Source of the DNA: Chrysomallon squamiferum
Taxonomy: Eukaryota; Animalia; Mollusca
Assembly: GCA_012295275.1 (NCBI GenBank)
Contig: CM022672.1
Span: 24,614,001-24,678,000 of the forward strand
Length of the DNA: 64,000 bases
Direction: 5' to 3'
This document shows, in pieces, positions 18,297 to 52,900 of this stretch. The notes under the pieces are model-generated. The model was given only the letters and a program-made list of their open reading frames with translations, did no database searches and had not been told where the DNA came from. The position numbers were made by a program, and so were the translations under genes. Within the stretch, counting starts at the first letter, position 1; each line of letters begins with the position of its first letter.

Positions 18297-18338
<42 letters not shown>

Positions 18339-20445: not shown

Positions 20446-20483
<38 letters not shown>

Positions 20484-20980: not shown

Positions 20981-21048
<68 letters not shown>

Positions 21049-21971: not shown

Positions 21972-22042
21972 GGTGATGTTTGAACGTGTGGAATATTCCT
22001 GGAGTCTCGAGGCAGACGTCTGCTCCTCAGTACTTGTGTATC

Positions 22043-22198
22043 GACTGACGAAGACCGGAGACTTCTACATGTGTTTATTATGCTGGTTTCGCAGGCTATA
22101 CATATTTATGAGCTTGTTTACATACGTCTCTTCCAATGGTATATCAGATTCTGTTACAGCAAGAAGGTAGCTAGCTATTGCCGGTTCTGATTACGTAA
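22043..22198 (-). promoter_or_regulatory. Probable HK-A core promoter
   Basis: Inr-like TCAGTC (22048-22043) about 75 nt upstream of the exon-1 ATG. AT-rich TATA-like element ~30 nt further upstream. Palindromic TTACGTAA (PAR/E4BP4-type bZIP site) at 22191-22198. Local CpG enrichment. Confidence 0.45.
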
Positions 22199-27414: not shown

Positions 27415-28951
27415 TTATGAACTAAGTTTTAAGTCTGCTAGCTTATTCTCTGCTTTTCGTTCTTCTTTTTCCTTTTTCAGTCTGTTTGCTACTGCAGCCA
27501 CAAGAGCAGCCCCTTTGCCACTTCCATCATGAGACAACATGCACTTGAACTGGAAACAAAAAGAGGAAAAAAATGTTAGACCTTAATTTGTTGTAGAAAC
27601 TTGTAGAAAACTTGCTGATCATAATATTTTCAGACAAGTGCAATAATAATTTCTAATAATGTCAGCATTGTCTTCCAATCTCTCTTGAATAGGTTCAATA
27701 ATTTTAATGTTTCACTTATAAAGATCATTTCAAAAATTAACATTATGTTAAAAAATATTTTATAATTTATAAATTGGTTTCTTAAAACACATATATAAAT
27801 AAAATATTGATTAGCATTTGGTGTTATTCCTGTAAGTATTTGTGAGAATTCATGCATGTCTACAATCTAATACAAAATCAGTTATTGTGTTGTTTTGGGT
27901 ATGAAACATGTAAAGTTCAATGTATTTACTATATAAAGCAATTTTTAGTTGTACATACAAGTAAAGATGAGAGCTACAAAAACATGTTTTCAACTACAGT
28001 GCTGTGTACAATCAACTAAGTCAGTATTAATATTCACATATGTTGTGTAGGCTGACAACAGCTGGTACAGTTTTCATTGTAAGCAGAAATTTCCTAAACC
28101 CAATGGTCAATCTATAAATTTTACATTTCTATTAGAGAATATATTTTTGAAGCAATTGTATTTATTGCTTTCATTTCATACAATTCTTGTCTAAATATAT
28201 TATGCACACATTGCACATGTTCAATTTAAATACAGTTTAATATAAAATTTCATGAACATTAAGACATTAAGACTGAATGATCTCTAACAATGCCTCTAAA
28301 GGTATTATTACAACAAATTGTTTGGAAATCATGGTAAATCATGAAAAAAGACTCACTCGAATACCCTTGTCAACAAGCTGGCCTATCTTCTCCATCATGA
28401 GATCATGGAAATGAGGATGGAATCTGTAGAGAGATCCATCAACTGCTACTGTTACATCAGGTCTCTTCATCTTGTTCAATATGCAAGCAATTCCTAGAAA
28501 TATTTTATACTTTATTCAGTTTTTTCCATATAATCAATTTTGTTTATTCTCTAGTGATATTGTTCATTATTATTACGTTTTTATTTTTCTGGCTTTTTAA
28601 AAACAATTTCTAACATTTTAAAAGTTTAATGAGATTTTGTTTTTATGCTCTTGTTGAGTGTATTTTATCTGAGTAATATTATTATTTTCAACTTGAAGCA
28701 TAAATTACCAGCTGAAGCCAAATATGCCGCTCTTGTTGACACTGCTGCACAGACATACTGAGCAATTCTACAGTCCTCCTCGGTGAAATGGTCTATGTTC
28801 AACTCATCAAAGACCTGCTTTGTGTTCTTAAAACCATCATCAACATCACTGAAATCAAATCAGTTTATAAACTGGAGATAAAACCTCCTCATCATACCAG
28901 AGAAGAAACTGAATAAAAAGCTGTCATATATTTCATAACATTCAACATTAT

Positions 28952-28988
<37 letters not shown>

Positions 28989-31374
28989 AAACAAACAAAC
29001 AAACAAACAGACAAAAACAGCATAATTAATATTTGAATTTTGACAGAAGGAAATTATTTGTCAGATAAAACTCTAAAAAATGTTCTTTTCTGAGATCCTT
29101 AATTTATTTGGAAAGATATAGCACAGATTCAAAGATAATGCTTATCACAAAAAAGCCAGAATTTGAATGACGGAAAAGGATTTCATATACTCTGTAGCAG
29201 TCTTATACCTTTCAATTTCAGATACATATTTAGTGTAGAATCGACCTCTGGTTGCCATCTCTTCTGATCCATGACCTTGAAAGAGCAGACCATTCTTTCT
29301 TAACTTCTCCAAGATTAGACGTGCAATTTCACCCATATACATCCCTGAGATCATTTTCTCATATCTGTTTCAAAAATTGTATAGATATTACAACACAATC
29401 AAACAAACTGATGACACCAAAATAACAATCAATAGACATAAATATAAATATTATTTGAAAAAAAAAGTCCAATAAAAATCAAAAGAAATAATAAAAATTA
29501 AAATTAAAATTAAAAAAAAGTCAACAGTAAAGAATAAATTTGAACATTTTAAATAATTTGTTTCTGTTTATTCTTACATTTGTTTTCCTGGATTAAGAGA
29601 GTGACTGTCAACTTTGTGGTCATATTCTGTTTGAATGAAATCCAATGCTCCATCATTTCCAAATGCTCCCCACTCTGTATTGATTATAACCTGACATAAA
29701 AAATGTACTTATTAATCATTTTGAATGCATATAAAAATAAAAACGAAAGAATTTTTTAAAATCCTCCTTTATATCTATCCAAAAAACACATGTTTGAACA
29801 AATATTATAAATGCTACACTGGTTTGAAAATTCATGAACATTTTAGTTTAAAATATTTTTTTTTATAATTTGAACTTTACAGTGTCTTTCACAACAACTT
29901 GAATAGATTAAAAAAACAAAAAAAACAAAACAATTAGAGACTTTTGCAAAGACTAACTAGAAAAAAATGTAACTTACCTCCCTTGGCTCTTCATCATCTC
30001 CATCCCACAGCTCAACATTTTCAATTTTTTCAATGTAACATGCATTAGTGCCTGTACCTGAAACAAAATCAAATGAAAACTGCTGAATTAGACCCGCAAA
30101 AAAGAAAAAAAACCAAAACAAAAAAAAACTTGAATTTTTATGTGATGGATTATTCTACAAAAATTACTTTGAACAATTCCAGGCAACAGATGTCTTTCCA
30201 CACACAGTGGTTGGTGGAATGGATTTGTTATAAAAAAAATGCAAATTTAGGTAACACAAGTAAGTTTATAACTGAATAAAACATTACCTAAAATAAGACC
30301 AATAGCACATTGTCGATCACTATGAGCACATGACATCAGTGCACCCACAGTGTCATTTATCACAGCCAGACATTCCACGTGTATATCCTAGGAACGAAAA
30401 ACTTATTGAATAAAGCTTCAAATCCAGCAATGTTTATTATAATCATTAAATACTTAATTGTATTTCAACTACTGTGTTTCAATAAAAACTAATCTTTGAA
30501 AAGTGTAAATCAGTTCCTTCTGATTATAAAGCTTCAATCCAGGCAATTTTTTAAGTTTAACCAAAAAAAAAAAAAAAAAAAAAGAAAAGAACATATATAA
30601 TAGCTATGGAGATTTGCTTATATCTTTCAAAAAGTATATAATAATAATCTGTTGAAATTAGTTTTCTATTAACTACAAATGATTGTAATTAGATTAAATA
30701 ATAATACAAGTTTCTATTAAGCTTACACCACGCCTCTTGATTGCTTCGTGAAGTAGGTGAACAATATCGTTTCCTTCAACACCTTCACAGCGAAATCCCT
30801 TTGTCCATGTTGTTAAAATAGCACGGTCTAATCCTTTTTGTTGGCATGGAAATGAAAATGTGAATCCTAGGGGTAAATTAGAATCCTTCAAAGCATGTTC
30901 TTTCATAAAGCGATGTATACACTCTGCTATATGGTCAAATAACTGAAAAATAATTTATTGCATCACTTTAAAAAATTTGTTGATAGATGTTTAATTTTTA
31001 AATATTTGAGTGAGTAGTTTATTTCTTTCAGATATGTGAAAATCTTTTTGTGTATTCTAAATTTTAAAACATAAATGTGTTATGCAGATCATTTCAAGAC
31101 TGATCTTAAAAAATGTAATAAAATAATTATACATTAAGATTTGTAATGACTAGAATTTCAGTTAATTATTAACTATATGTGGTCTGATTATACTGCTGTT
31201 AAAGAAAAAAATAATAATAAAAAAAAAATTTGAAAAGAATAAAAATATAAAAGTAATAGTAAAAAAAAAAAAGTATGTGACTGCAATTAGATTTTTTTTT
31301 TTTTTTTTTTTTGATATATTTATTTATATAATCTTTATCTATATATGGTTCTATAGGATTATCTCTATAAATTC

Positions 31375-31412
<38 letters not shown>

Positions 31413-31946
31413 TATAATACCTGTACACCTGTTCCTAACATAATATGCTGTGGTATAATATAAATCTTGCTCTGCATTGTCACTTCTTGACCTTGTAAGG
31501 AGATCAGTAACACACGGAAATTTGTTCCACCCAAATCCAGTGCTAGGAAATCCCCATTCTCTGAAAACAGATGGTAAAAAACAGTCAAATATGACTGTTA
31601 TCAGTCAATCTGGTAATATAGTTTTAGGATTCTGGTATATTATTTTAATTTTAAAAATACTGTAAAAAGTGTTTTTTTACTTATGTTTACAAAAATGAAA
31701 CCAGATAAAATAGACAGATGCACATGTGTATCAGTAATCTGTTGGTTTGAGTGAGAATAAATGTCGTAGATCAGATTAATTACCTGTTCCATCAGGAACT
31801 GATCTAACATATGTTGGGAACATTTTGACAGCAGCATTGGCATTACTGTCCTTGCCAAGACCTTGGTTGAAGTTCTCCAACATTCGATCCATAACCTTTC
31901 GGTAGTCTTCATCCTTGAGGAGCAGAGGTTTTACAATATTTTCAAC
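27415..31946 (-). CDS. Hexokinase paralog B, common core (459 aa after a variable exon 1). Exons: 31946-31784, 31560-31421, 30942-30727, 30387-30288, 30057-29978, 29690-29578, 29364-29209, 28848-28709, 28493-28357, 27549-27415
   Basis: Motifs [85 protein letters not shown] and DGSGKGAA. Canonical GT-AG introns. Exon lengths 163/140/216/100/80/113/156/140/137/135 versus 163/140/216/100/89/113/159/140/137/90 in paralog A. Confidence 0.95.
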
Positions 31947-32825
31947 CTGAAATGTAATAAGAACATATTTGTTTTTTTAAATAACAAATACTATTTTCAA
32001 GTTATTTGGATTTTTGGATTTTTTCTTTTAAAAACCTGAAATTCAAAAAAAGAAAAAAAGACAGAAGGAATATAAATAAATAAATAAAATTTAATTTAAA
32101 AAAAGCAGATAATAAAAAATTAAAATTGAAAAGAATTCATACCAAAAAAATCAATTAATTTTGAAGCTGTGGCATTAAATTAACATTTTTCAAATACATC
32201 CATCAAAAATGCCTTTATTACTATGAAAAGAAAATTTAGATGAGAAATTAATTTTCAGGTTTTTTTTTAAAAGGATTATAATATAAGGTAATTTAAATAA
32301 TTTTTTTTGTTTATTTATTATTATAATAATTTGTATTTATTTATTTATTTATTTATTTATTTTTTTTGTAATGCTAGTATTACATATGCTTCAGGTAAGA
32401 GACTTCTCATCATTTTCATTCATGAAAAGGATTGCTTTTTGAAGACACACCTGAATTGACCTTTAACTGACAAACGCTTCCTGTCGAAATAGAGCCCTGG
32501 TTGTCTGGGTAAAATAGGTGTCATACACCAAGGTCACCTAATTTTCTTCAAAGCAAGCTTTAAATAAATCTCTCACAGCAATGTGTTACACTCAAATATT
32601 GCACGCAAACCCAAACAGCCAAATGTACAAACATTCACACAGTCTTAAGTATCAGGACAAATATTCATTGTAAAATAACTTAAAATTTATAGACTATTTT
32701 TAAAAATAAAATATAACAATAAGCTTTGCCATGTATGCCTTTAAAGAATGGATTTTAAAGAAAGGATGGATACTGTTTCTGTTTGTTTGTGTGTGTATGG
32801 TATAAAGAATTTAACAAGTATGAAT

Positions 32826-32870
<45 letters not shown>

Positions 32871-34486
32871 ATATAAGTTTAGTAATTGTGTATGGTTATG
32901 AAGATTTAAGAAGTGTATTAATAATAAAAATGTTTAAATGATTAAATTAAATGACATCAGTGAATGTTGCTAAATGCTAAATAAATAAATAGATAAATAA
33001 ATTTAAAAAAATAAAAATAAAAAAAATCACAAAATAATTAACATCTGATGCAACCGCACTGTTTAAAGAAAATTACTTAAAGAAATATGGTACTGGGTAA
33101 TTGACTTGGAGTTGTAACCTACTCCCAATAAGCACAGTTATAGTTTCATTCTTGGAATGGAGTAAAATTCCATATTTGCTTTCCTTGCTTTCCCTACACC
33201 ACATTTAGAGTATGGAAATTTCCAAACATTTATTTGTGTCACTCATTTGCAAAATTGCACAGTGAACAAAAAACATCAAACTGTAGGGAAAATAAAAAAA
33301 AAAAAAAAAAAAGATACCTTCTTGATACGTGTTTTAAGTGTAAACTTGATAGTATTTAATAAATATCTTAAGATTAGTATTTGTTTGGAATGTCTTTTTT
33401 CTTCCACTATTTCAGTTTTTAAAAATAATTTAGTCATAAATGTTTTTTTCTTATCATGCTAGTTTTATATAGCTGTCAGATATTTGGTTAAAAATACACA
33501 GAACAGTACCTCAGATGTTTGAAATGTCATTATATAATATGCTGTAACACTACGTCAATTCAAATTTGAAGTGTAGTTTTGTCATACATTACTGTAAACT
33601 AACCTGTCTGGAATGTAAAGGATCAGAGTGACCTGTTTGATGTTGCAGAACCTATCCCACAGACCTACTGACACATTACAAACACACAGTAATCTTAAGA
33701 TATACACTAAAGACAGATAAAGTTTATACATATAATAGGTATTAATTAGCTTCAACAAGGTCATCTTTATGATGTAATCAGACTGTATCACAAAGGTTAT
33801 TATGCCGCAGGTGAAGTACACATTACTTCATCTTTATCAGGTGTAACATGACATGCACTGACAGCTATATGCAATTACTGAAACTTGTTTGTTCACTTCA
33901 CTACTGTACAACAAGAGCAAGGGACTTTGTCACTAGAGTAGACCAGTACAAACATATTTTACACTTTTCATCTTTCACTTAGTATCTTTTTAAATGAATG
34001 GGAATATATAACTTGTTTAGTAAAGGATGATTTTGAAATGAGATTATTTTGGCAAGCTCCATTAAAAATTGTAAAACTAAGCATCTGTATATCACAATTA
34101 AGGATTTGTGTTATTTATCAAAATTTGGTAATTATATTATTCATTTAACAAAATATACCTTAATATAATAATATACATCAGTATACCATAATATAATTGA
34201 ACTATGAGTTACTGAATATAATATCTTTCACACTGTAGTTAAAACATTGTTTTAAGGATATTAAATTATTACATTTTCAGAAATGGGATATCCTCTGAAG
34301 TAATATTAAAGTTTTTATCTTTGGATACTAAGTCATTAAGTCAGTTATTCTGTATTGTAGTAATTGATACTATCCTTTTGTATTTTATGGCATTATGTAA
34401 TAATTAACTACATTTTCAAAAAAAAAAAAAAAAAAAATCTGACAATGATCATACTTACTCTATGGCTCACTGTTTGAGTCTCTCTG

Positions 34487-34519
<33 letters not shown>

Positions 34520-34587
34520 AATTATAAAAGATGATGTAACACTGAAAGAGAGACATGTTAAAAAACAGATTATGATGATACACTTGC

Positions 34588-34674
34588 CTTTGATAGGGCT
34601 GTTTGATCAGAAATTGTGTATTTCCACTTTCTTGCACGCAGCTTGAAAGATTCTGTACTTTGACAAGATCCCAT
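34588..34674 (-). CDS. Candidate HK-B first exon, MGSCQSTESFKLRARKWKYTISDQTALSK (N-myristoylation/palmitoylation-like), GC donor
   Basis: 87 nt (29 codons) ending AAG|gcaagt, the textbook GC-AG donor context. Phase 0. MGxCxS pattern followed by a basic cluster. Confidence 0.65.
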
Positions 34675-37600
34675 TGAATTGATGAAACGAATGATTAATA
34701 GAAACCGGTGAAAATCTGTTACATACGCAGATTAGTTCCAAATGAAATAGTGTATCCTTTTTAAAAACAGTAATCTTAAACTCTTCACAATACTTCAGAA
34801 AACATTTTCTCACTGATGTATTGTGATTTTAAATTCAACAACAAAATTTTCTTCAGCAACAAAAAATGAAGTAGTACGTGTATGATGACAGACAGATATT
34901 GTAGGAGAGCCCACTGTTAGCAGCAACTAGTCTTTCCTTAGGATCAATAATTCTAAACTCAATAGCTTACTCACAGTTCACCTGCAGTTTGATAATTCAG
35001 TAACAACTATTTTGTTTCCAATTAAAACTACTTTCATTCACTTTGGATATAATTTATATTATTTCTGTAATACACTTGTAGGATGTCACAGAATAAAGTG
35101 ATTTCATTAAGATGTGACAGTTGTTTATAAACACAAGATTATTCACTGCAATCCTGTTTGTGTGAATGACACATACTTGGTTCAGGATGGTACATGTGTC
35201 CTATTTGTCTGAATGAAATAAAGTCTTGGGATGGTAGGCTTTGTTTCTTCATATAAATTAGGGATGGATAAAGACCAAAAAAGGACAACTATTTTGACTT
35301 TTGAATGCCATTTATGATCATTTTTCTTAAAATCATATTTATGTTTTAAGTATAAAATCACTACCAGTATTTGAGAGGATTCTTAATTATTACAATGAAG
35401 AATATATTTTCCTTTTATAAATGTGCATTTTTTTTTTACTTGCATCACATATACTTTTGATATTTTTATTTAACAAAAATCTTTGGCAAGATATTTTCAT
35501 ACATAAATATTTTGCTTTAATCATGCACAGAAAATTATTAGTCAACAAATACTATATTTTCACTTTTGATAATAAAAAATTTATTGTTTAGGGTCTTTTT
35601 TTTTTTTACCATGCAGCTTTTATTAACCACAAAGGTCAGACTGTCCTGTCTCATACTTTTACAGGAATGGATTGGGGGTGTGTGCTATCTAGCATTCCAC
35701 ATTGGCTGATGCAACATCCTGATCAATATTTTGTCAATACTGCGTGGCAGTCTGCCAGCAACGTTAACACACTAAAATAAGGCTTGGCTAATTGCCAAGG
35801 TTACCTTGTTTAATATATTGTCTGTCTGAAAAAGGTGGGAACAGATGGAAACGTTTCATTGGCTGAGAAAGAAAGGGCACTGAGTTCATTGTGTCAGATT
35901 AAAAAGGAAACCTATGAGTTGAACAGTCACGCTAAGAGCATAAACATATTTTCATTACTTACTATGTAAAAGCAATACTTAGAAACACAGCCCACTACTT
36001 AAGTAGATATTTGATATCACAGTACTGCAGTCTATAATAATTTCCAATCATTATGTTCACTACTATTAATTTTTTTAAAACAAAGTTTAAATACTGAAAT
36101 TGGATGGTTGAATATAGTTTTTGCTGCACATTGAATGATTGTTTAGGTAATTTTAATGAAAAATTATCTCTACAAACTGATGATTAAATTAAGATGTACA
36201 CAGCTAAAGATCAGCTAATAATTCAACAGATATATCTTGCAAGGTATAAAAAATGGTTTTGATCTTAAAATTATGTATTACCATTAGTTTGCAATTGAAT
36301 AATGAGATCAAAAGCTTAATAAACTATCTTTCTTTACAACCAAAACAATATATGCCTTTCTCTGTCCATCTTTTTCTCTCTGTTCTTAACATAAATTTAA
36401 ATAAAAAGAAAACGATTATGTCAAATGGTGAAAAGGAAAGTGAATAAAATTAATTTTTTTGATAAATTAAATAAATCATTCTAAAGTTTTGGTGTGCATG
36501 TTAACATATACAAATTTCTCTTTTTTCTTTCATTGGGGAGAGAGAAAAAAAAATTTTGTAAATATTTTTGTAATTATCGGTTATCCACACACGTATGTTA
36601 TGTTTTCAAAGTATTTGCACAAAAATCAATTCTACAATAAAAATTAATGAACACAGTATCCAGTTAATGCTGATATGTACTCATGTTTAGGCAGATATAC
36701 GTTTGGGAAAATATCTGTTCTTATAGTTTTAACGTAGTATGCCTGCTGCAATGGCATGCAGAAAACTGTTTCCCAAAGAGTGTGCTAAAAATAGCCATAA
36801 TTACATTTACATCAGTTATGAACCAACATTACTGTATCTCAGAAAAATCAAAGCCTGAACTATTCATTTAAAATTCTGCTTTTTTTTTGTCAATGACAAA
36901 TAGTTTAGTGAAGGTCAAATCTCGTCAATAATTTGGTCTGATCTGCTTTCAGCCCATGACGCAAATAGTAAACTCATCAATATTCAAAGTGAATATGTCT
37001 ATGTATACAAGCCATATAAGGGAGATATTGCACATATATTTTTATTTGTTAAGCTTATGGAATCTTAATGCTATTTTACCATTATCAAACTGTGAAAAAG
37101 TTTGTGATTAAACAAAGATTAATGAATATATACACAGATATGCATGATGAACATTTAAATAAAAACAAATGATTTATTCCAGATAAAAGCACAACAGAAA
37201 TGCAGATAACATTAGAGAAGCATATATTGTACACAAATTAACATTATTATTTATTTATACTTTTAAACTAATGAATCACTCATACAAATGTTTTTTTTTT
37301 AGCTTTTCTGTTTTCAAAAGAATACAAATGAAGACTAAACATAGGAACGTTCTTTCTTTATTATGCCATGTACATATCTACACATGCATAAACACACACT
37401 CAATCTCTGATACAACACTTTGCAAATTCAGTAAGTAACAAATATGCTTTTGAACTGCATATTCTACAGAAGATAATGTTAAATCTCATCAGCATGTAAA
37501 TAAAAAATGACTTAATCTTGGTGTCAGATGTTGATATAAAATATTTTAAAAGTATACATATTAAACTGCTCCTGTTTATCTTTTACATTCCTTTGTTTGC

Positions 37601-39041
37601 TAGGAGTAGAACTTTTGCACCACTGTTAATGTAAATAACATACAAGTCAGTTTTCTAATTAGATATACATGAAAATGATATTATTATTAACATGAATGAA
37701 ATGTATGAGAATCCACGAATGTGTGTTCAACAGAACATCCTTCCAGAGGATTTTCATTGTATTGTATGATCAGTACAAATGTACCTATCACTGCATTCCT
37801 GACTACATTGTCAACAGTTAAACTATGGTGACATAAAAAAAGGATATGTCGCAATGTTAACAAATAGGGCCACTGGAGTGAACACAGGAGCTTAGTTAAA
37901 GGTGTCATAAAGCATGTAGTTCTGGTTATAGAAATACACCAAAAGAGTTAAATGATGTACAATGATCAAAGGTGGGGACAGTCTTAAATACATCCTCAAC
38001 CGACATTAATATCCAATCTGCAATATTTCTAATATTCCATACAAAATAATTTCAGATGATGCCACAAAGCAGATCTACATTACACAAAAAGAGGTGTTAA
38101 GACAGCCAGTAATTAAATACCAACATTTAACACATCAAGTTAAAAAGGTTTTTCTGGATTTGATATTTACCTGAATTTTGGCTAATTTTACACATTACAG
38201 CTGGAATAGCAGATTTTTTAATTTTTTAATTTTTTTAAAGCATTTTAATCCAATGAGGAAATCATTGATCATTAAAACATATCAATGTAAATCTGACATT
38301 TAAGAACAAGACTCAGAATCCAGTTATACCTTCAGAAAGAGTATAACATTACAAATTAAGACATTAACCACATTTCAAAGTATTATCAACTCCTGTGGAC
38401 ACTGTACAAAATATTACTTATCTAAACTGTTCATGACAGATTTATTATAATGGATATTTATTTCATTTTTACATAATTTCTATTTTTACAATTTCTTCTT
38501 GATCTTTTTATAACAGTCTTACATTTTGAGGTATTTTTTATATCAAAATATGTCATACAACATAAATAATTTGATTTCTATTAGGATTAATTTTAGAAAT
38601 ATTTGTAGCAAATACTGAATACTTTTATGTATACCCTTTACAACATCCATAATACTTAAGATACATATTAATAAGATTTCTTTACTTGTCTTTAAATTAA
38701 CACATTTATATAAAATAAAACAAATGTTCTGCATTATTCAGTTCTACTGCCTTTTCATCTCAAAGTTTAATACAAATAATTTAATTCATGGCAAATCATA
38801 AGCTAAATAATATAATTTTACTGTGTTAATTATTCTTTAAAAAAAGTGACTAAAATATGTTTGTTGAGTTCTTTAAGATTTATTGATATTTATATTGTTT
38901 TGTGAATTATTTACGTTAGCTTTATGATGTTTCTCATCATTTTAAGACATTTTTGAGGCATTATGTCTGGTTTATGCAAAAAGAAGAAGAAAAAAGGTTA
39001 TGTCGCAGCTTTTAGAACCAATTAATAATACATGCTGTGTA

Positions 39042-39083
<42 letters not shown>

Positions 39084-39399
39084 TGTGTGTGTGTTTACTT
39101 GTCTATATTTGTTCACACTTAAAATTATGTGATTGTAGACAAAATATACAAATTTATAAACAATTGTACAGATCTAAACTTAATGACTAAAATTAATAAG
39201 TCTTAATTCTAAATGACCTTTATAATATGAAAGCAAATAATTCTAATTGTAATAGTTAAACTGACTGACAGGAATGATTGTACAGACTTCAAATTAATCT
39301 TGTGTTAGAATTTAGAGGACAAACAAAGATCACCTTATTATAATAGAAACGACCACACCTGTAACAGAAACACACAACACAACACTGCAGGTTACCTAC

Positions 39400-39504
39400 C
39401 AGAAGTCTTCGTGCTTTTTCATCTTTGTTCTTCAACTTCTGAGCTTTCCGTATTCCACGATTACTTATCAAACTAGGTGGCTTTAATGTATTTTGTGAAG
39501 GCAT
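39400..39504 (-). CDS. Candidate HK-B first exon, MPSQNTLKPPSLISNRGIRKAQKLKNKDEKARRLL (basic)
   Basis: 105 nt (35 codons), donor CTG|gtaggt, phase 0. TATA-like TATATTTA at ~39608-39601. Confidence 0.6.
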
Positions 39505-41816
39505 TATATAAATATAAACAAGTACTCTCTACATATAAAAACTGACACCAATATCACAGCAAAAAAAAGTGCTGGAATGTATCTAGTAGCGTGCTGATCC
39601 TAAATATAGTTCCAGTTCTCCATATATCAGTCAGATCAAACAACAGTTTGGGTTTTTGTGATACTGGTGTAGTGTATCACAATGTAGATGTAACCTAGAG
39701 TGAAATACTTTAACAATTCACAACAGAATATCCCACAGTCCCTTCTGCTAATAATCAGTCGAAACAATCAATGGCCATCACCATCAATATACAGACCAGG
39801 CAACTGTATGTTGAGCTAAATTTGGCAGCAGGAAATATATTACCATGCAGAACTTGTACAGTGATCAAGAAAGCAAGCAGTGCATGAGTGAAAATGTTGA
39901 GGGTTGAATCACATGAATATCAGTGAAAGCAGTAAAGCAGAACAAAAATTTGACCTCTGAAGGATACAATAGGTCATTCATACATTTGGAAACATCCTGT
40001 ATGTAGTGTTAAAACTGTGGTAGATATTCGTGAAAGCAGACATGAAAACTGATAAATTATGCATGCATGGTAGCAATGTTTCTTTGATGGAGTTTTAATG
40101 CAAAGTTTAATCATAAAAATGTTCTGCCATGCATGAGCAAATGCTGTAGTGAGCTAGAAGAATTTTAAGAGAACAACTCAATGACTTGGCATTTTACATG
40201 TCATGATATTATAAATAAATAAATGAGAATTGGCAAACTGCCAGAACTGCCGTTTAGTTCTGTTTTTTGATAGGAAGTAAAGGAAGACCATTGTTATTAT
40301 ATTTTATATACATCTTGACACAAACATATATGTCTTGTTATCAAATACGTGTTTTTTTAAACAAAAGCGACCCCCTGCTTAACATTTTGACACAACTTCA
40401 ATATAAATTATAACAAGATATGTATTAACTAAAAACTGGGAATGCTTATGTACACGTATGCAGATATGTGGGATTGGCCTTCATTGTCAGCAGAAATGTC
40501 TTCATGTGATCTTTGTATGTCCTCTACATTTATTATGTCACGTTGTTTATTGTTCACATCTTGGAAATATATGCTTAACAAAAGAAAGGTTCTATGATAA
40601 AAATAATTAGATTTTTTTTTCAAAAGAACCCACCCCCATTAAATTTCATGTAACTCATACTGGCCTCAAAACAGTTAATTGATATTAATGTCAGTCACAG
40701 ACTGTAATTAATGTGAGTTTTTAAAACTAATAATTTATTTCTCAAGTCTTATTTATAATGGAAAAGGAAATTCCAAATAAAAATCCTATCAAACATGTAA
40801 GATATCAATTAAAACATTTCACAGTAACATTTTATTAACTTGTTACCAACAAACAATTTTTTTATTTATAGTAATTACACAACAAGCAAAAGAAATACAT
40901 ATTTGTCAACTTTTCAACAAATTTTAACTTGATTTGTTAAAATATAATCAGGCTACAGGTTTGTTTTTAAAGTAAAACAAAAAAATATTTATGTTTACTT
41001 TTGGAGCTGTTTGTTACTGAATATCAATTTCAGACATTAAACAATCTAAACAATTCATACATATATTTATTTTTAATAAAGAAAATCAATTGTAGGTATG
41101 TATATCCAAAAATATAGTTATATATATATATTGTACTTTATTGATTTATACCCAGCTGTCATTACCTTCAAACCCTGTAAACAATTTAATTATAGTTCAC
41201 AAACAAGTTTTATTATACTTGTAGATAAAACTAAGCTTATTCAACCGTTATAAAATTTTAAATTATATTTTAAATTATTATAATTTTTTATTAATTTTTG
41301 TTTTTGTTTTTATTTAATTTTGATTATTTACGTCTTTTTTTATAAATATTTTTTTTTTTTTTTTTTATTATTAATATCACTTCCTTTTTACTTAGACAAA
41401 CATACATGTATACATTTAAAATTCACTAAATATATCTGAGAAAAATACTTTATTTGTATTTGTAAATAAGATACACTTATTTGTATATTTTATTTGTAAA
41501 TAAATAAATAAGATCAAGACAATGGTAGGAGGATGACATTTTCCCCCCTATCTTATCTGAATAATTTTTCTCTGGCAAAAAAACAATAAGAAAAATTTAC
41601 AAAACTGATATGATTTTAAAAATATGATAAAATTTTTGAAAATCAAGTTTCAATATTAATTTTTAAAAATTTAAAAAAAAAAAATAAAAAAATGAAAAAA
41701 AAAATATAACAATAAGAAAATAAAAACAAAGTTTTAAATTCTTAAATACTTGAATGCTAATATCTAATAAGATTATAAATGATTATGCTGATGATAATTT
41801 TAATAATAATCCCTAC

Positions 41817-42038
41817 CTGTTGTTCTTTGGAAAGTGGAATTGAATCTAAGAAACTGACCAATGGCTGGAGTAACATGAGACAGAATTCAGTCAGTTGAAA
41901 GACGAGTGTCAATAGTGGCTGAGGCAGACAGGTCATCAAATACTTCATTAGAAGACTTACTACAGGCTTCATGTATTCATTCACAACGATCCTTTTAGTT
42001 GTGCGAGGTGGATACAAACGTTCCACAGCAATAGCCAT
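41817..42038 (-). CDS. Candidate HK-B first exon, 74 aa, MAIAVERLYPP...LLMKYLMTCLPQPLLTLVFQLTEFCLMLLQPLVSFLDSIPLSKEQQ (hydrophobic)
   Basis: 222-nt open frame, start context aaaATGG, donor CAG|gtaggg, phase 0. Consensus TATA box upstream. Confidence 0.7.
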
Positions 42039-42315
42039 TTTCTTTTTCTCTGGTTTCTCAGAATTAATATATTTTCAGTATATAAAATTATTACTTTTTT
42101 TTTTTGGTAAAATCAGTGAAAAGTATAAGATATTTTACATCAAGTTTTCAGAAAAGATATTTTTGTAACTAAATTTAAAAAAAAAAAAAATAAAATTTAC
42201 AACAAATTTTGAGAGAAAGGTCTTCAAGATACGTTAAAAATACAGCACAATAATGCAGGCAGCTGTAACAGGCAGAAAGCTTGATGCGAAGTTGTACATG
42301 TGTCACAGTTCCCCT

Positions 42316-42323
42316 CTTTTATA
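42316..42323 (-). promoter_or_regulatory. TATA box (TATAAAAG followed by AGGGG) for the 42038 exon
   Basis: Consensus TATA in non-AT-rich context, ~280 nt upstream of the ATG. Confidence 0.55.
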
Positions 42324-45300
42324 GCTACCTTGCTGTGCTAGGTCACACTGAGAGAGACAATGTGTGGCTGTTACCACAAATACTCTGATAAATACAACAC
42401 TGGATGTGTAGGTGGTAAAGTTACTGTAATTTACTTTTTAGTTGTTTTTATTCTTTCTTTTTTTACATAATTCATGTATTTAAAAAAATTAAAATTATAC
42501 AATAATTATGAAATAAGTGTTGATATATATATATATATATATATATTTTTATTTTTTTTTTTTAGGGGGTGTTTCTCATTGTAGTTTTGGAACAGAAATA
42601 TTTTTTTTCCTTTATAATACTGATTATTAGATTATTAAATCTATTGTTAAACTTAATTAAAATTTTCATCAGCATCATATACAGATATTGCAAATATAAA
42701 ATATCTAATAACAAAGAAAAAAAAAAAAAAATTTCCCTCTAAAACAGAAATCATAAGAAGACTATAAGAGATAAAAAATCCATTAGCACATTAAAAAACA
42801 TCACAGAACCAATAACAGTTAAAACCACAATGGTTAGACACCTCTGTAATTTGCATAAATATAATCATCAAATGTTCATTTTACTTTAAATACATGCATA
42901 AATCTTTTAATTAATGAATATATTTTTCACATACAAACACACACACACAAAAGAATGTCTATAATGCAGCCTTCCAGAATATTGCTGCTGCAACATTCAT
43001 CATCAGTTTATTTTATTATGTTCTTTAAAGTAATATTTCAAACAAAAGTTACATGTATGTACTATATGTAAGAACCTGTAAAGTAACATACCTAATGAAT
43101 AATAATATTATACATTGCAAACATTCATTCAGTGTCATAAACATTTTCTGAAACAATATCCAGATCTCATAACTTTTTGTCTGGTAAAATAATAACTATT
43201 TTCTTTCTTTTTTAACTGTTTATGGTCATTAAATGCAACAAAAAGGAACAAAAGATGACCATTTTCAAAAGCAGAAAATTAAAAACATGCAAATAAGTGT
43301 AAAATACATAACTCATAATTATATTAAAATTATTTGACAATGTATATTTTTCAAAATTAATGTTGTTTGATATGAAACATTATTTTTCATTATATCTTTA
43401 TCAAGTAACTTGTCTTTTGATCTTGAGTAGGAAACATTTTAATCGTTGAATCAAGTGGGCTTTTTTAATAACATAAGATAAGTATATCTGAATTATATTT
43501 ATAAATTTGTATCTGAAAAAAAAAAAAATTTTAATTATCTGCAGACTGACAATGTTTTTTTTTTTAAAATTATTATTATTATTTTTTGTATTTTTTTTTT
43601 AAGCATTCATCCGGCAATGAAAATGCCTTCATCATGGTTCTGTTGTCACAACATTTCCCATTACAGAAGACATGAAGACACTGTGATGGGTAGAAGGGTG
43701 TCTTGCTCTAGTGATAATCTTTATCACAGATGATTGATTGCACATAGTAAAATTAATATTATAATAAATGTATGTGTTGAAACATGTATACCTTCACCAA
43801 GCGACTCACTTCATTTAAGCACATATCAGTTTTCAAAATACAGTTAAACAACAAGTTATGCAAGGTACTTTAAAAGTTCAGTTTCTGGCATTGTTTAAGA
43901 GAATATCTTCAGAAAACTGAACTTTCATCTCTGACTTGGTGTCTGTGTTTCCTTAGTTTAGCTGAAGTTCTTCATTTGTTAATTTACCTATAAATATTTT
44001 ACTTTAGAAAATCTCATAATAGGAGAAAGGAGAAAAAAAAGAAGAAAAAAAGAAGAGAACTGTCTATTTTGGTATATATGCATATATATTATTTTGAATC
44101 AAACCAAGTCACAACTGATCCAGCTTAAAAGATAGTGTCTGCTGAAATGCATTTGTGTGAAAGTTTCTTTTTTTGTTTCTTTTTTAAAATCTAAATATGT
44201 TTTTTGATAATTAAAAGAATAAAGTTGTAATGCAGAAATATTTTTCTATCATAAAGTTTTAGTTTGAATAAAATATTAAAATAAGTGAAATTTCAGTATA
44301 AATATATTACACACATTCAAGACATAAATTCTACAATTTATTTTTAATTTGGCTTAAGAATCAATAATATATACTAAATTTTGCTTCAAAAAAATTATTT
44401 CTTTAAAGAATATATTCTTTTCTAGAAAGTTTACTGGAAAAGAGAAGGGTTTATCTAACTCCTTTGGGAAAAAAAAAAAAAAAGCTTGTGAATGTTACTA
44501 CCATGTGGTTACAACATGCAGCCTTGACACTCTAAGTATGGCACCAGGACAATTACAGTTAAACAATAGTTTTGTATTTCACCTTGTTTAAGTACTAGCA
44601 CACTTGTCAGGCAATGACCTGCAGACATGTATTTTAATACAACAAACTTCATGACATCACGTTTCTTTAGACATAATAGAAAGAAAAAAAACATAATAAT
44701 AATTTTAAAAAAAAAAAAAAAAAAAATTACATATTAAATAAAGATAGACTCCTTCTCCTACAGCTATTCACTACCAAATTAAAAATAATTTTGCAATTTT
44801 CATGTGGTTTCTTGTAATGTAAATATTTCACTTAACCGTACATAAACACATTTCTCTACATATAATTGCCATAAAAGGTTATAATATTGGAAATGTATTT
44901 TATAAGATTTCAATAATAGGTTCCTCTGCATAAGTTGCATAATTATAATTATTTATATTCTTCAAAAATAATTATCTTTTTAACTTTGTTGCATAAATAA
45001 ATCTTTTATATCTACATGTAAATACTAAATTAAAAATAAAATGGAGCTAAAATTGAAAACACATGAACAATTAAACATCAATTCCTAGTTCACTGCATCA
45101 GTACGTTACATATGTTATTTATCTGAATATGAATACAATATATTTGTTAACATACTACAGCCACTTGTAAATAATCATTTTTTGTTGTATTTACTGATTA
45201 GAATATTAAATGAAGTGTTTGTCTTTAACACTGTTGTTTTGTTTTTTACTTACTTATTTGGTTCTTTACTAATGTGAATATCACTTAGCATCTAAACAAC

Positions 45301-46620
45301 AATTTGTGAATTGGAAACATTCCATGTTAAAAACTGTTTATTCATAAGAACTTTGTACAGTTTCAGTAATCAAGAAGAAAAAAAATTATTTCTAAACTTT
45401 TTAATCTTGCCTTTATAAAAACTCACTTTGTGTATCACTATACACAAATGTTTTCTCCGATATTATAAGCTGTATGTGTGTATGCATGCATGAATTGTTA
45501 CACACACACACACACACACATACACACACAAAAACAAAAACAAAAACAATGAAATAAAAATCACATAAAGTAATCAATGAAAATTGTATCCACTTAAACC
45601 CAGGTGTTATTGGACTGTTTCCCATTCGTAATACAAAAAGAAAAAGAAAATGAATAACTAATTTCAATATAGGGTGTTCATTAATATTTCTCACTGTGCA
45701 CCATATAAGTAGACTAAGTGATTATAAAGTCCACAACACTCTTACTCCTATATTGATTAAATTCATCAATACATTTGTTCATATTAAGACACTGTGCACC
45801 TAAGACAATCTGAATCCCAAAAAGATAAAAACTAATAAAACTAAATCTTTACTACTAAACATATTATATAGTAATGTATATTTTGATATTTTGAATCTTT
45901 AAAACCTGCAGTGCTGGTTCTGCTGTGAGTGAATTAAATAAAATAAAAGCAACAAATTGTTTTTCTTTTATTCTCTCTAGACCGAATTTTTTCTAAATTT
46001 ATTTTACCAATACTTTACGACTTTTGTATCAGTAAAACCAATTTCTTTTTAGATATATTTATGTTAAGAAACAGTTCTGATCTGGAACAAAGCCAAAATA
46101 ACTTGGTATCAATACACAGCAGTAGTGAATGCTATGTGTATATGATTATGTTCATTTCACAACACTATTCATTGATTGCTTGGATACACACATATAAAAA
46201 ATATGTCCTTATGACGCAAAACATTGAAGAACTTGAATATTGGTTTACGTGATCAAACAGCATGCAGTATACTTGTTACCCTCTGACACAAACCAAGGAT
46301 CAATAACCTGTATCTATATAATTCTCTGAATAACAACACTGTATGGCCAAAAGAAGTATACATTACTTTTAAAAACGGTTTAATAAGTTTGGAAAAACAT
46401 CTTATAGTTAATATATTTATATATTTTTTAAATAAGTGATAAAATGTTTAAAGCTTAGGTGAAATAACTGATATATGAAAATAATCGTCTTAGTGAGAAT
46501 TACATTATACAAGAAGACCTAGGACTCAGTCTTAGTAGAATTTTTGACCATGTGTATAAAATTGTAAAATAAATAAATAAATATAAAATAAAATAAATTA
46601 TATAAATTATAACACACCAA

Positions 46621-46661
46621 ACAACTTTTCTACTTTAGGCCATGGAAGATAGGAATATATA
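46621..46661 (-). repeat. Exact 41-bp inverted copy of Abraxas exon 3 sequence (50937-50977)
   Basis: acaacttttctactttaggccatggaagataggaatatata is the reverse complement of tatatattcctatcttccatggcctaaagtagaaaagttgt. Confidence 0.93.
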
Positions 46662-49198
46662 AAATTCTAATCACTGTTATTAAAAGTCTTATAGTTTAAA
46701 AAAAAAAATGAATTGTTATGTTAGCAGATATTACCAGTTATTTTTTTTTAAAATAGAAGAGATTTTTATAGTTAAGATTATATTTTAAAGTTGACTTTTT
46801 GAGATTTTTGCCAAAATTCTAATCACTGTTATTAAAACAGTCAAATCTGCTTTTTGTTTATCAGTTTATGATAAAAAAAAAAAAATGAATACTTAATAAT
46901 GTTATCTGCTTAACATCTGATTAAAAAACAGATACTGGAATTGGGAAACAGACTCAGATTTGGTATTAATCAAATGTTTTTAAAACATATCTATAGGAAA
47001 TTTATGCTTGGCAATTATGCCCCTAGTCAATGGTCAGATGGTTAATACTGGTGAATTGTTTATATATTATATATATATTTTTGTGAATCTAACCTAATAT
47101 TTTTGTTCTTAGAGCATTTCTTGAAAAACTGACAGTGTATCTAAATATTAACTTGATAATTTTATATTGCTCATTAAACTCAATTCAAATTATCCTACAT
47201 ACTGAAAACATTAACATGTTTCAAAAAATTAGACAATCATGTATCAACTGCCTACTTTCCAAAACACTAAAATAAGTAAATAAAAAATTAATAATATTCA
47301 TGAACAAACTCACTGATAATTTTTATGGGTAAAAAAACAAACATTAAAAAAAAAAAAAAAAAAATTAAAATGTTGGAACAACTTATTATGAGTGTTCTTA
47401 TAGCAGGGTTCAGCCATAACAGAAGCCATCTACCCTGAGATATCAGATTTTATGGCATTGTAAAGCTTGTATTCTGAGTATTTAGTATTTCAGACTTATT
47501 TATAACTAAGTTGTTGGCAATTCTCATTTTGTTGATGTCAGAACAATGGCAAATATTTAACAACAAAACACAAACACAAACACAACCAGCAAAATGACTG
47601 TAATAAAAACCACAAATGAAAAATAGATATGACAAACTGAATGGGTCAAAAGGTTTTATGCTGCTGGGTGAAAAGGAGTTAGAATGGGTGACTTTCAATG
47701 AAGATAAAAATGCTATATTTTTATTCCATGTACAGTCTGAATGTAATAATTTAAGAAATAAACTGAAAACAAAACATCCACACAAATGTAGTGAATTTCA
47801 AACAAAATGTTCTGCAATCGAGTTAGCAAAATTGAAAACAAGAAAAGCAGTGGAAGCACAATGGATATTAATACAATTTTTTTTTTAATGAACATTCAAT
47901 TGTCAAATATATTATGGGGCTCCCAACTTTTACTGTTGCCTTCCAGATTAAAAAAATATTAAGCTCAAGATATCAATAACAATGTCATTAGTTAAAATAA
48001 TTTAATGGATTTAAACACACAAATATATAATATTACACCACTGAATTCTTTATATACATATTTTCCCAAAGGTTGAGATCATCAATATTTAATAGACTCT
48101 AATATAAAAATGAATAACTAATTTGGAATTCTTTTTATTTTTTACATGTCAAATTATACTAACTTCATGCAGTGTAACACTACTGAAAGCTATTGATCTG
48201 ATGCAAGAAATATTTGGTATTACATTTTATACCATCCATTATAAACAACTCTGTAGAACTACAGCAAAATTTGATGGTGGGCTTAAATATTTTAGGTGAT
48301 TTGTTTTGGCATTATATTGTAATGCAAATGAAATGAAAAAGTTGCAGAATCATTAAAAAGACATGTTCTGTATAAATGAAAAGTAATAATAATAGAAAAA
48401 GACATCAAGAAATGATCAATTCTAAACTATTTTTTGTGTATTTTGGTATACAGCTATTTATATGACTGAACAAGTGTAACAAAATCTAAAGCTCTCATTC
48501 TAGTGTACTTCAGTGTTTTATATAATATAGTCACCATTAATTTTTTTTTTTTTTTTTTTTTTTTTATAAATGTAATAATTAGAAAGGAAATTTGGTACTA
48601 ACACCCATTCTGATCAATTTAAAATGTTTTATAACTTGAACTATTAAAATGTTCTTAATGAAACAATATTAATTATGAATATATTTTTATATATAAATTT
48701 TAACTTTTGTTTGGTTTTTTAAAATATAAAATGAAATTATAATGTTTAAGTTTATTAATAATGTGCTTGAAATCAGTAATATCCATCAGTATTTTGATAA
48801 CATTTTTACTGCAATCATCCGATTTCGGTAATAAATACGTCTGTATGCAAACTAGAAGTAGTGGTTTGGAAACAGGATTAAAGGGAGACAACCATTTAAT
48901 GTTGATACTTTTGGATTTATTCGATCTTTATGCGCGGAAATTACAAATCAAAGCCTTTACTTTGCTGTAACAACAACAACATCTATTAATTCAGAAACCT
49001 ATCTTTTATAATAAAAACTTATCCACCGATAAAAATACTAGATATATGATGGAATAATTTATGAAAGTGGGATGGTCACTACATACAAACCGGTGATAAA
49101 TGGCAAAAATTTGTACACAACGACATAAACAAAACAAATTGTGACAGAAAAGCATGGCTGATTGTGATAAAAATAGACAGAAAATAAAGAACACTTAC

Positions 49199-49273
49199 AG
49201 AAGACTTATCAACTGGCTGAATAAAATGTTTCTTTTTTCTTGAGGGGCTCTTTTTAAGGGGAACACGAGACAT
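49199..49273 (-). CDS. Candidate distal HK-B first exon, MSRVPLKKSPSRKKKHFIQPVDKSS (NLS-like basic cluster)
   Basis: 75 nt (25 codons), consensus donor TCT|gtaagt, phase 0. Lies in CpG-enriched DNA divergent from Abraxas. I found no other minus-strand gene body between it and the HK-B core. Confidence 0.65.
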
Positions 49274-49938: not shown

Positions 49939-52900
49939 ATGGCCGCTCATGGCAGCGGAGCTGTATTTGCTTCCTTGTTTTTTGATCAAATCAATAGCCC
50001 AGATGATCAGGTTTGAAACTGAGATTTATTTTAATTTCGTTGGTATTATATGTGGTTCATGTTGAAATATAATTGCTATGGTGTTTCCCTTTCATTAACC
50101 GATCGACCCGGAAGTGGCTAAATGTTTTATTTTTTAAAAAGAAAGTAGGCGTATTTCTATAATTTCATCGAATTGACAAATAAATTGAAATAGAACAAAT
50201 ATACACGATCATATAATGTTTAATTTTAATTTTCTTTGATATATTTTTTTCAAAGAGTTACACTGATAAATTGTAAAGGATCTTTGTTTTAATTTCAAAA
50301 TTAATTTGGTCAAATTCAGAAATTGGCGTTTTTGTGGTTTACAAGAAATAAAATAATATGATAATAACAAGTATTTAATATTTTGCAGGAAGGATTTCTC
50401 CTGGGGAAAATTATTGATCAAGTTCATGACAGAATTAGTGACTCACAGATAAGCAATTATAAAGTTGAAACTAGAGTTTGTGAGTATGTTAGGTGCGTGC
50501 GTGTGTATGTGTGTGAGTGTGTATATATATACATATACACACACGCACACACAAGCACACACACCCACACTAATAATAATTTAGTGGGTTTATTGGTAAC
50601 TAATAGGGATTTACTTAACAAAGTTTGTTTCCTGGAGTAATAATATATAGAAGGCACATAATAATGCATCTGTGATAAAATCTGCCAAAAGATCTTATAA
50701 TATTTACATTTGATACTTAACTATGCTGTTAAATTACATAAACGTTTCTTTTAGTAAGCTTATACCAGAAGATAATTACATGAAATCAAATGAATGTTTA
50801 CAGTTCATACATAACATCACTATTCATCAACACAATAGTTATTTCTTAAGTGAGTAGCCAACAATTTCAATATATATATATATATATATACCAAATTTTG
50901 GTTTCAGTTAATTTCTTCTTTTTTTTCACTATAAGGTATATATTCCTATCTTCCATGGCCTAAAGTAGAAAAGTTGTACAACCAGGCTGGTCAGTTCTCC
51001 ATTGACTTGCTAAAACAGTTTCTTCTAGGAAAAGAAAAAGTATGTATTGGGTTATTTTGTTCACAGGTTAAGGATAATCTAATTATAAAACAAAAATAAT
51101 TATATAATGTTGTTTCAGAATTCTAAATATTTTGTAAAATTTAACTATGATATAAAAATGTCAACAAAGCTGTTTTAAACATGTAACTATTAGCACCATC
51201 TAAACTTTCTGTGTAATAAAGTTTAAGTGATGGCATTAATATATGGTTTACTTAGAGAAGTCTGTTTAATCCCAGTTACATTTTTAAAATAAAGATTATG
51301 ATGCTAATATGATCATTATCCATTATAACTTTAAAAGACTATTCAAGTGTAAAGATATATGTGAAAAGCATCAGTGCATATACTCAGTACTTAACAAATA
51401 AAATGTATGTATTCTTTTCTGGAAGCAGACATTTGGCTAGAATATGTTCTATTGTATGTAAAAATTAAAAAATAAAGTCCATGAAATATACATTGTTAAG
51501 CTAATATTGTCAAATGTGTATTATTTTTTAAAATAACTGTTAAAATAAAAAAAATCATAGCTTGGCTGTTATCATTGTAACTGAGTGATTAATGCTAACT
51601 AGATGCCAGATTGAAATTTAAAAAAATATTAATTGTGACTTGACCAGAAGTCACAAAATCAGATACATTTTAAAAATAATATTCTTAGTTAAATATACTT
51701 GTTATTAGGCATGAGTATTCCTTCAAATTGTTAATTTAAAATTGCTTTCATATGATAACAAAATATTTATATTTTATAGCTAGCTAACATTTTTCATTTA
51801 GGACTTTCTCTCTGATTTATGACATTTTATTTATTAAAATATAATTCCAAGATGCTGTTTTTTGGTCTAAATTAACTTACACTTTAGCAATTCACACACA
51901 ACACACAGATAATATTGTGTTTTCATATCTTATCCATTTAGATCTGAAGAATTATGAAATATTTTATTTCCAGGATGTTATTGGTTGGTATAAGTTCAGA
52001 CGGAATTCAACATTACGTCCATCACTGAAAGAAACAACCTTACATCATAACCTTATTTATTCTCTCTCCTTGGAACGTGATCAGCCTGAAAACTTCTTGT
52101 TCTTCCTCTGTAGCACTTTCACATCACCAAATCTTGCTACACATACTTATGACCACTGCTTTCTGAAACATCAACATGGGTATGTTTGTGGGTCACTGGT
52201 ATTTTGAGTAGTTATAATGATTTATCCAATAACTTGACTAACTTGTCCCAACATCATACTAGTATTACTTGAATAAAGTGTTTGGTTATTATGAACCTTT
52301 GTTAATAATAATGAAAATTGAAAATCTAAACATTTGCAGTGGCTAGCTTAGTTTTTCAGGTATGTTTCTGATTTCTATGGATGATATGATTTCATTAAAA
52401 AAGAATCCTAACCTACATGCAGTTTAAATAAGACTGTCAACTGATGCATAAAAAAATTAATTAGGCAGATTTTCAAACTCCATGTGTAGAGTTTAACTGC
52501 AGCTTATTTCTAAATTATCATTTGCTTTGATATTCGCACATATATTGTGAATAATTGTCTTTATAAGAATGCATAAAATTGTTTTGTTTTATTCTCTGTT
52601 ATCATTTTTTTAAGATGTTCATTTCAGATTTATAATTTATGAGAATTTATGAGTACGTGTTTATTTTAATCTAAAATTAATTTGTGTTTTTATTTTAATA
52701 ACTAACTTATTTATTTGTTTACAGAAAATTTCACAGGATTCCTGTTCAGATTCTTAATCTTGGAGACACAACACACACTTCTTACAGACAGCAGGCAAAC
52801 CTTGGGATTAATCCAGAGAGTGGAACTATACATTCAGTGCTACATAAATTTAGGTAAGTGTGCAAGTTTCCAGTTGATCTTTTATATTTTTCTTTTTTAA

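What the first reader, a model, noticed from the sequence alone, without database searches (positions are those of the whole stretch)
31947..49273. Hexokinase B appears to carry a cassette of alternative first exons encoding different N-terminal 'addresses'
Seen: core exon 2 begins at a phase-0 acceptor without its own start. Across 17 kb upstream lie at least four ATG-initiated exons, each a multiple of 3 and ending at a good donor: 34674-34588 (MGSCQS..., lipidation-like), 39504-39400 (basic), 42038-41817 (74 aa, hydrophobic, own TATA box) and 49273-49199 (KKSPSRKKK). Known: hexokinase localisation is set by the N-terminus, e.g. the HK1/HK2 mitochondrial-binding helix, erythroid and spermatogenic HK1 exons, and tissue-specific GCK first exons. 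Inference: one catalytic core is sent by promoter choice to lipid-anchored membrane, organelle membrane, nuclear or cytoskeletal sites. I know of no description of such a broad array for an invertebrate 50-kDa hexokinase.
Basis: partly seen in the sequence, partly recalled or inferred. Interest (0 to 1): 0.88.

Follow-up and report, generated by a model that had tools for sequence, protein, structure and literature searches.

The report
Snail hexokinase with four swappable starts
A snail hexokinase gene has four alternative protein-coding start exons (two seen spliced in RNA here, all four matching annotated isoforms of a related snail, one shared even with clams and oysters) that likely send the same sugar-phosphorylating enzyme to different places in the cell, as mammals do with their sperm hexokinase.

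Summary
The cassette is real. All four exons are in frame with exon 2; the 34588 donor is GC, not GT. RNA contigs join the 74-aa exon to exon 2 in 3 of 4 runs and the 35-aa exon in 1 of 4, by one short contig. No joint was seen for the other two. Gigantopelta aegis has four RefSeq isoforms matching the four exons one-to-one, 60-76% identical. The MG-x-C exon spans three gastropod lineages; the 25-aa exon reaches bivalves. The swap point is the intron where human GCK changes its first exon. The 'address' reading holds unevenly: lipid anchoring of MG-x-C is likely (precedent: mammalian HK1S) and membrane binding of the 74-aa exon plausible. A nuclear role is unsupported, because the conserved part of that exon is a predicted helix cap, and nothing points to the cytoskeleton. 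No localisation was tested. Ten paper searches found no description in molluscs. The scan had no earlier hexokinase note, only a similar exon array in another gene. Verdict: new variant of a known kind.

The parts
49199..49273 (-). First exon D, 25 aa, basic run then F-x-x-P-V-D-x-x-S at the junction; outermost exon, in the only CpG-rich stretch
   Evidence: G. aegis X4 15/25 identical; motif in 16 proteins, 14 named gastropod and bivalve species; no joint seen in 4 runs; CpG o/e 1.04
41817..42038 (-). First exon C, 74 aa, two predicted amphipathic, hydrophobic helices
   Evidence: joint to 31946 in runs X1, X2, X4; G. aegis X1 47/74; three Haliotis species; helices 24-37 and 40-65 in the model of the G. 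aegis isoform
42316..42323 (-). TATAAAAG, candidate TATA box of exon C
   Evidence: one contig would start 22 nt inside the expected start, another would reach beyond the box; weak
39400..39504 (-). First exon B, 35 aa, basic (net +8)
   Evidence: joint in run X1 only, a 57-nt contig with 28 and 29 letters on the two sides; G. aegis X2 22/35
34588..34674 (-). First exon A, 29 aa, MG-x-C-x-S plus basic KWKY patch, GC donor; predicted myristoyl plus palmitoyl anchor
   Evidence: G. aegis X3 22/29, two Haliotis and two Patella species; pattern met in all five orthologues and the window; no joint seen
32451..32860 (-). Possible fifth, non-coding first exon (weak; upper limit approximate)
   Evidence: two low-depth contigs in run X4 end 2 nt from the best of 37 GT sites in 32900-31947; no ATG in frame; no joint seen
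31784..31946 (-). Common exon 2, 163 nt, phase-0 acceptor; equals GCK residues 16-69 and HK1 residues 22-75
27415..31560 (-). Rest of the catalytic core, exons 3-11 (core of 459 aa from exon 2)
   Evidence: all AG/GT boundaries, 93.5% identical to G. aegis
49939..50010 (+). First coding exon of an Abraxas-family gene, head-to-head with exon D (666 bp between the ATGs)
   Evidence: PF21125 on its next exons

Best explanation
One 50-kDa hexokinase gene splices different coding first exons onto a common exon 2 (seen for two exons here, inferred from relatives for the other two), and the resulting N-termini likely place the same enzyme at different sites in the cell. Step 1 (shown for C and B, inferred for A and D): each exon brings its own ATG and joins exon 2 in phase 0. 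Step 2 (inferred): each has its own promoter; D would be the outer one, shared with the Abraxas-family neighbour in CpG-rich DNA, and A, B, C would be internal ones in CpG-poor gene body. Step 3 (predicted): isoform A is myristoylated on Gly2 and palmitoylated on Cys4 and, helped by the basic patch, sits at the plasma membrane. Isoform C binds an organelle or lipid-droplet membrane through an amphipathic helix pair. Isoform D is the old soluble form, whose P-V-D caps the first core helix and leaves a disordered basic tail. Isoform B carries a fast-changing basic tail of unknown partner.
For: Joints in RNA contigs: C in 3 of 4 runs, B in 1 of 4. G. aegis RefSeq X1-X4 differ only before the exon-2 sequence, with N-termini of 74, 34, 29 and 25 aa, 60-76% identical to the window exons. 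Peptides are conserved far beyond a promoter's needs: A in 5 species of three gastropod lineages with Gly2, Cys4, Ser6 invariant; C in 4 species with all polar residues of helix 2 within 100 degrees of the wheel; D profile matches bivalve N-termini at 94% probability, E 2e-7, while the other gastropod-to-bivalve and between-class pairs score under 4%. Precedent at the same intron: human GCK exon 1 encodes the first 15 aa from two promoters (PMC11382428, passages) and exon 2 ends at c.208 (PMC11919142, table rows), so it is 163 nt like the window's; 7 of 10 window coding introns map onto GCK introns. Mammalian HK1S replaces exon 1 by an N-terminus whose Gly2 and Cys5 are needed for plasma-membrane location (PMC4736023, abstract, introduction and passages).
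Against: No localisation, acylation or promoter was measured. The B joint has 28 and 29 letters on its sides, under the tool's 31-letter rule. B does not align beyond Gigantopelta (z at most 1.6). C was not among 6 of 6 Patella proteins read and does not align to the long bivalve N-termini (probability under 1%). C is not a clean transmembrane helix. D, proposed as the outer default form, was not the form seen in these runs. GCK's two N-termini give similar kinetics (PMC11382428), so first-exon swaps need not be addresses. One contig would reach upstream of the TATA box of C.
Confidence: 0.65

Rival explanations
1. The exons exist to give tissue-specific promoters; the peptides are tolerated by-products and all isoforms are cytosolic, as liver and islet glucokinase largely are.
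For: GCK isoforms differ in the first 15 aa yet have similar kinetics (PMC11382428, passage). B turns over fast. D's conserved part can be explained as a helix cap.
Against: Gly2, Cys4, Ser6 and KWKY are kept across Neomphalina, Vetigastropoda and Patellogastropoda; a 69-74 aa amphipathic segment is kept in 4 species. By-products would not be expected to keep these.
Confidence: 0.17
2. The N-termini tune the enzyme (oligomer state, stability, kinase or partner docking, feedback inhibition) and do not set its place.
For: The D motif abuts and is predicted to extend the first core helix; bivalve basic N-termini carry several R-x-x-S/T sites.
Against: The window's B and D have no such site by my patterns; the acylation pattern of A has a tested membrane-targeting precedent (PMC4736023). 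Not exclusive with the best explanation.
Confidence: 0.12
3. They are mutually exclusive second exons behind a shared non-coding leader, or A and D are no longer used in this species.
For: No A or D joint in 4 runs; only D lies in CpG-rich DNA; a T-tract plus AG lies in the leader of C near 42168 (sequence); the X4 contig has 655 letters on the C side.
Against: A and D are intact, in frame and 60-76% identical to G. aegis isoforms; the X3 contig stops exactly at 31946, as a branch to an exon not ending in G (such as D) would give, a weak hint.
Confidence: 0.06

Closest known systems
Mammalian HK1 with somatic (porin-binding), erythroid and spermatogenic (HK1S) first exons
   Same: First exon swapped at the same position (exon 2 = HK1 residues 22-75); one isoform begins MG with a nearby Cys; HK1S is shown to be myristoylated and membrane-located (PMC4736023).
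   Different: HK1 is a 100-kDa double-domain enzyme. The snail gene is single-domain, its Cys is at position 4 with Ser6, and it has no recognisable mitochondrial porin-binding helix. Homology of exon A to HK1S was not tested by alignment; only the six-residue motifs were compared.
Vertebrate glucokinase (GCK, hexokinase IV) with islet and liver leader exons
   Same: 50-kDa enzyme, two promoters, first 15-16 aa swapped at the identical phase-0 intron, 163-nt exon 2, 7 shared intron positions.
   Different: Two main short leaders with similar kinetics, against four unlike peptides of 25-74 aa here; the leaders show no evident likeness to the snail peptides.
RefSeq and GenBank hexokinase isoform sets of Gigantopelta, Haliotis, Patella, Mya, Mizuhopecten, Argopecten, Crassostrea, Saccostrea, Mytilus
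   Same: Same gene (tree: window with G. aegis 100/99); several N-termini per species, all ending at the same junction.
   Different: These are automatic annotations with no function attached; bivalves share only class D detectably and have their own long and basic classes.

Membership tests
Animal 50-kDa hexokinase (PF00349 + PF03727) | One copy of each Pfam domain | tested here: met
   exon 2 hits PF00349; G. aegis orthologue has one of each; core 459 aa
Animal 50-kDa hexokinase (PF00349 + PF03727) | ATP- and sugar-binding motifs intact (motif list recalled) | tested here: met
   DLGGT, GFTFSFP, NDT, INTEWG, EKM, DGSGKG all present
GCK/HK1-type alternative first exon system | Several coding first exons joined to one exon 2 | tested here: met
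   C in 3 of 4 runs, B in 1 of 4; A and D only through relatives
GCK/HK1-type alternative first exon system | Swap at the intron before the first core helix | tested here: met
   maps to GCK c.45; exon 2 is 163 nt
GCK/HK1-type alternative first exon system | Separate, tissue-specific promoters | not testable with these tools
   contigs cannot show starts; tissues of the runs unknown
GCK/HK1-type alternative first exon system | Peptides homologous to the vertebrate leaders | tested here: inconclusive
   0 of 129 scored representatives carry the D motif, 1 has an MG-x-C start; one protein per 50% cluster, so weak; HK1S itself was not aligned
Dually acylated (myristoyl + palmitoyl) membrane anchor | Gly2, allowed residue 3, Ser/Thr6, nearby Cys | tested here: met
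   window A and 5 of 5 orthologues (pattern recalled)
Dually acylated (myristoyl + palmitoyl) membrane anchor | Acylation shown and needed for location | not testable with these tools
   needs labelling and mutants
Classical monopartite nuclear localisation signal (exon D) | K-K/R-x-K/R or basic run conserved in orthologues | tested here: not met
   strict pattern absent in the window and in 14 of 15 class-D proteins scored; the run of four basic residues is lost in Patella and scallops
Transmembrane signal-anchor (exon C) | Uninterrupted hydrophobic 19-mer | tested here: inconclusive
   Kyte-Doolittle 1.66-2.39, but conserved Gln, Glu and Pro on one face and unfavourable insertion sums of 1.3-5.1 (scales recalled)

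The most novel reading that the evidence does not exclude
The first-exon slot of hexokinase is an ancient bilaterian address cassette: the ancestral single-domain gene already used several promoters to swap N-termini at this intron, and molluscs and vertebrates each kept the switch and refilled it, arriving twice at a myristoyl-palmitoyl anchored isoform. Compartmented glucose phosphorylation would then predate the vertebrate HK1/HK2 mitochondrial system.
Probability: 0.3. Interest if true: 0.72.

Novelty: new variant of a known kind. Interest (0 to 1): 0.5.

Why it matters
Where hexokinase sits decides where glucose-6-phosphate goes, and that control is known almost only from mammals. A single-domain invertebrate gene with four conserved N-termini at the same intron, one with the signature of a lipid anchor like mammalian sperm HK1S, makes it directly testable whether addressing by first-exon choice is ancestral or has evolved repeatedly. 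It also matters in practice: oyster, mussel, scallop and abalone studies that treat 'hexokinase' as one protein are averaging over isoforms.

Tried and rejected
No genome is held for this window, so no second allele or wider context. No DNA of relatives was available, so dN/dS, exon order and the GC donor in relatives were not tested. A search with the first 45 aa of the G. aegis A isoform returned only its own cluster, because isoforms hide behind one representative. Pfam found nothing for the four peptides; the ESM Atlas gave no usable hit for C. Homology of C to the long bivalve N-termini: rejected for now. Haliotis-only N-termini (X5, X6 types) have no match upstream of exon 2. The four other lenient ATG candidates (46363, 44694, 33764, 33437) have no relatives. 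The search of 50% representatives collapsed molluscs and showed no D motif elsewhere; the look-up of 7 further representatives, most unnamed, gave single-member clusters, so other phyla remain untested. The bacterial promoter scan is irrelevant to this gene. Contig depth was not used to rank isoforms; absence of A and D contigs is not evidence of silence. The tree does not resolve whether the cassette genes form one clade apart from the paralogue (open node). Ten paper searches found no account of the molluscan array; subscription journals and supplements were not seen.

Full report
Observation. I label them A (34674-34588, 29 aa), B (39504-39400, 35 aa), C (42038-41817, 74 aa) and D (49273-49199, 25 aa). 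A ends at a GC donor, and D's donor is weak on a rough matrix. Each ATG has an in-frame stop 1-19 codons upstream. By sequence alone the set is only modestly above chance: 12 lenient donor sites from 8 ATGs, against 4 on the other strand and 2.6 in shuffles. The gene is the upstream one of two tandem hexokinases; its core is 459 aa with all motifs, 93.5% identical to Gigantopelta aegis and 74-80% to abalone, limpet and bivalve proteins, so the organism is a gastropod close to G. aegis.

RNA evidence in this organism. Four RNA runs of one study hold the gene as contigs. Laid on 30700-32800, contigs that carry exon 2 run on into letters that match the 3' end of C in X1, X2 and X4, and of B in X1 (letters checked against the window, each unique). 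In X2 and X4 a single contig spans C and at least three core exons. The B joint is one 57-nt contig with 28 letters of B and 29 of exon 2, under the tool's 31-letter rule for bridging but exact. No joint for A or D appeared in 4 of 4 runs. The X3 contig stops exactly at 31946, which a branch to an exon not ending in G would cause; D ends in T; this is only a hint.

Relatives. G. aegis has four RefSeq isoforms of 537, 497, 492 and 488 aa that differ only before the exon-2 sequence. They match C 47/74, B 22/35, A 22/29 and D 15/25. That RefSeq models of this kind rest on RNA-seq is my recollection; I did not see their support. Against 65 distinct N-termini, hits at E<0.01 in the 20 kb upstream fall only on these four exons. 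A is found in G. aegis, two Haliotis and two Patella species; C in G. aegis and three Haliotis species but not in 6 of 6 Patella proteins read; B aligns only to G. aegis, although most species have some basic N-terminus; D's P-[VIL]-D-x-x-x end is in 16 of the 94 proteins that passed my exon-2 filter, from 14 named gastropod and bivalve species. Gastropod and bivalve D profiles match at 94%, E 2e-7; other gastropod-to-bivalve and between-class pairs stay under 4%. Cluster listings were partial (15 of 62, 15 of 17, 15 of 18 and 15 of 74 members), so absences are soft. Bivalves have several N-termini per species of their own, all ending at the same junction.

The junction is old. Exon 2 aligns without gaps to human GCK 16-69 and to HK1 up to residue 75, starting at 22 by offset. 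GCK's leader exons encode the first 15 aa from two promoters (PMC11382428, passages), a splice variant c.45+1 is listed (PMC12017003, one table row), and exon 2 ends at c.208 (PMC11919142, table rows). Mapped on GCK, 7 of the window's 10 coding introns fall at c.45, 208, 363, 579, 679, 863 and 1019; the other three (c.750, 1153, 1311) have no GCK counterpart in those tables. Bat and pig glucokinase proteins with 15- and 16-aa leaders diverge at the same column. The tandem paralogue, which groups with a Mytilus paralogue at 100/100, has the same 163-nt exon 2 and a 13-codon first exon.

What the peptides look like. A: Gly2, Cys4 and Ser6 are invariant in six sequences and meet the myristoylation pattern, followed by a basic KWKY patch. 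Mammalian HK1S has an alternative N-terminus whose Gly2 is myristoylated and whose Gly2 and Cys5 are needed for plasma-membrane location (PMC4736023; part 1 of 6 and passages). C: the model of the G. aegis isoform has helices 24-37 and 40-65 at pLDDT about 70-76; hydropathy is high but conserved Gln, Glu and Pro lie on one narrow face, which suits a surface-inserted or oligomeric helix better than a plain anchor; the organelle cannot be named. D: residues 1-19 are disordered and 21-30 confident, with a helix from 23 to 33, so P-V-D is best read as the cap of the first core helix; the basic run that suggested a nuclear signal is lost in limpets and scallops. B: basic, no conserved motif.

Promoters. 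Only D lies in CpG-rich DNA (o/e 1.04), 666 bp from the ATG of a head-to-head Abraxas-family gene; A, B and C flanks (0.22-0.31) resemble the gene body (0.22). That fits an outer shared promoter and three internal ones, by inference from gene-body methylation in molluscs (recalled). If colinear, the C contigs would start at 42271, 42101 and 42471; the first fits the TATA box, the last passes it, and contigs cannot show starts.

Verdict. The alternative-first-exon structure is about 95% secure; that the peptides act mainly as addresses is about 65%, strongest for A, fair for C, weak for B and D. It works like the HK1 and GCK first-exon systems and uses the same intron, but the peptides are not shown to be homologous to vertebrate leaders. 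Ten paper searches (listings only, except the six papers opened) found no description in molluscs; a hexokinase review (PMC8256278, passages) mentions oyster hexokinase only as a pattern receptor, and a preprint (10.1101/2022.06.27.497447, passages) confirms the testis and erythroid exons of HK1. New variant of a known kind; interest 0.5.

Noticed in passing
window 32451-32860, - strand: Two low-depth contigs of run X4 cover this part of intron 1 and none of the other introns laid; they end 2 nt from the strongest donor of the stretch (7.0 bits). Possible fifth, non-coding first exon that would give an address-less enzyme from the internal Met of exon 2, like 439-440 aa forms annotated in Haliotis and Mytilus. 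Could be pre-mRNA or DNA.
   Followed up: partly
window 11766-21971, - strand: Tandem hexokinase paralogue with first exon 21971-21933 (13 codons) and a 163-nt exon 2 at 15397-15235; it groups with a Mytilus paralogue, so the duplication predates the gastropod-bivalve split. Mytilus has two N-termini for it; a second one was not identified here.
   Followed up: partly
window 11700-22300 versus 27400-48700: The paralogue region is CpG-normal (o/e 0.81) while the cassette gene is CpG-depleted (0.22), suggesting unmethylated versus body-methylated genes side by side.
   Followed up: no
window 49939-56500, + strand: Abraxas-family gene (PF21125) head-to-head with exon D, likely sharing a promoter.
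   Followed up: partly
proteins P0163, P0194, P0196, P0197: Class-D N-termini of heterodont clams carry P-E-I-R-I, resembling a calcineurin docking motif (motif recalled); absent in the window.
   Followed up: no
proteins P0195, P0204: Ruditapes and Mercenaria have 1011- and 1094-aa hexokinase models in these clusters, with two hexokinase halves in P0195: either independent 100-kDa fusions or merged tandem genes.
   Followed up: no
window 34587-34586: GC donor of exon A with an otherwise near-perfect consensus; whether relatives keep the GC is unknown.
   Followed up: no
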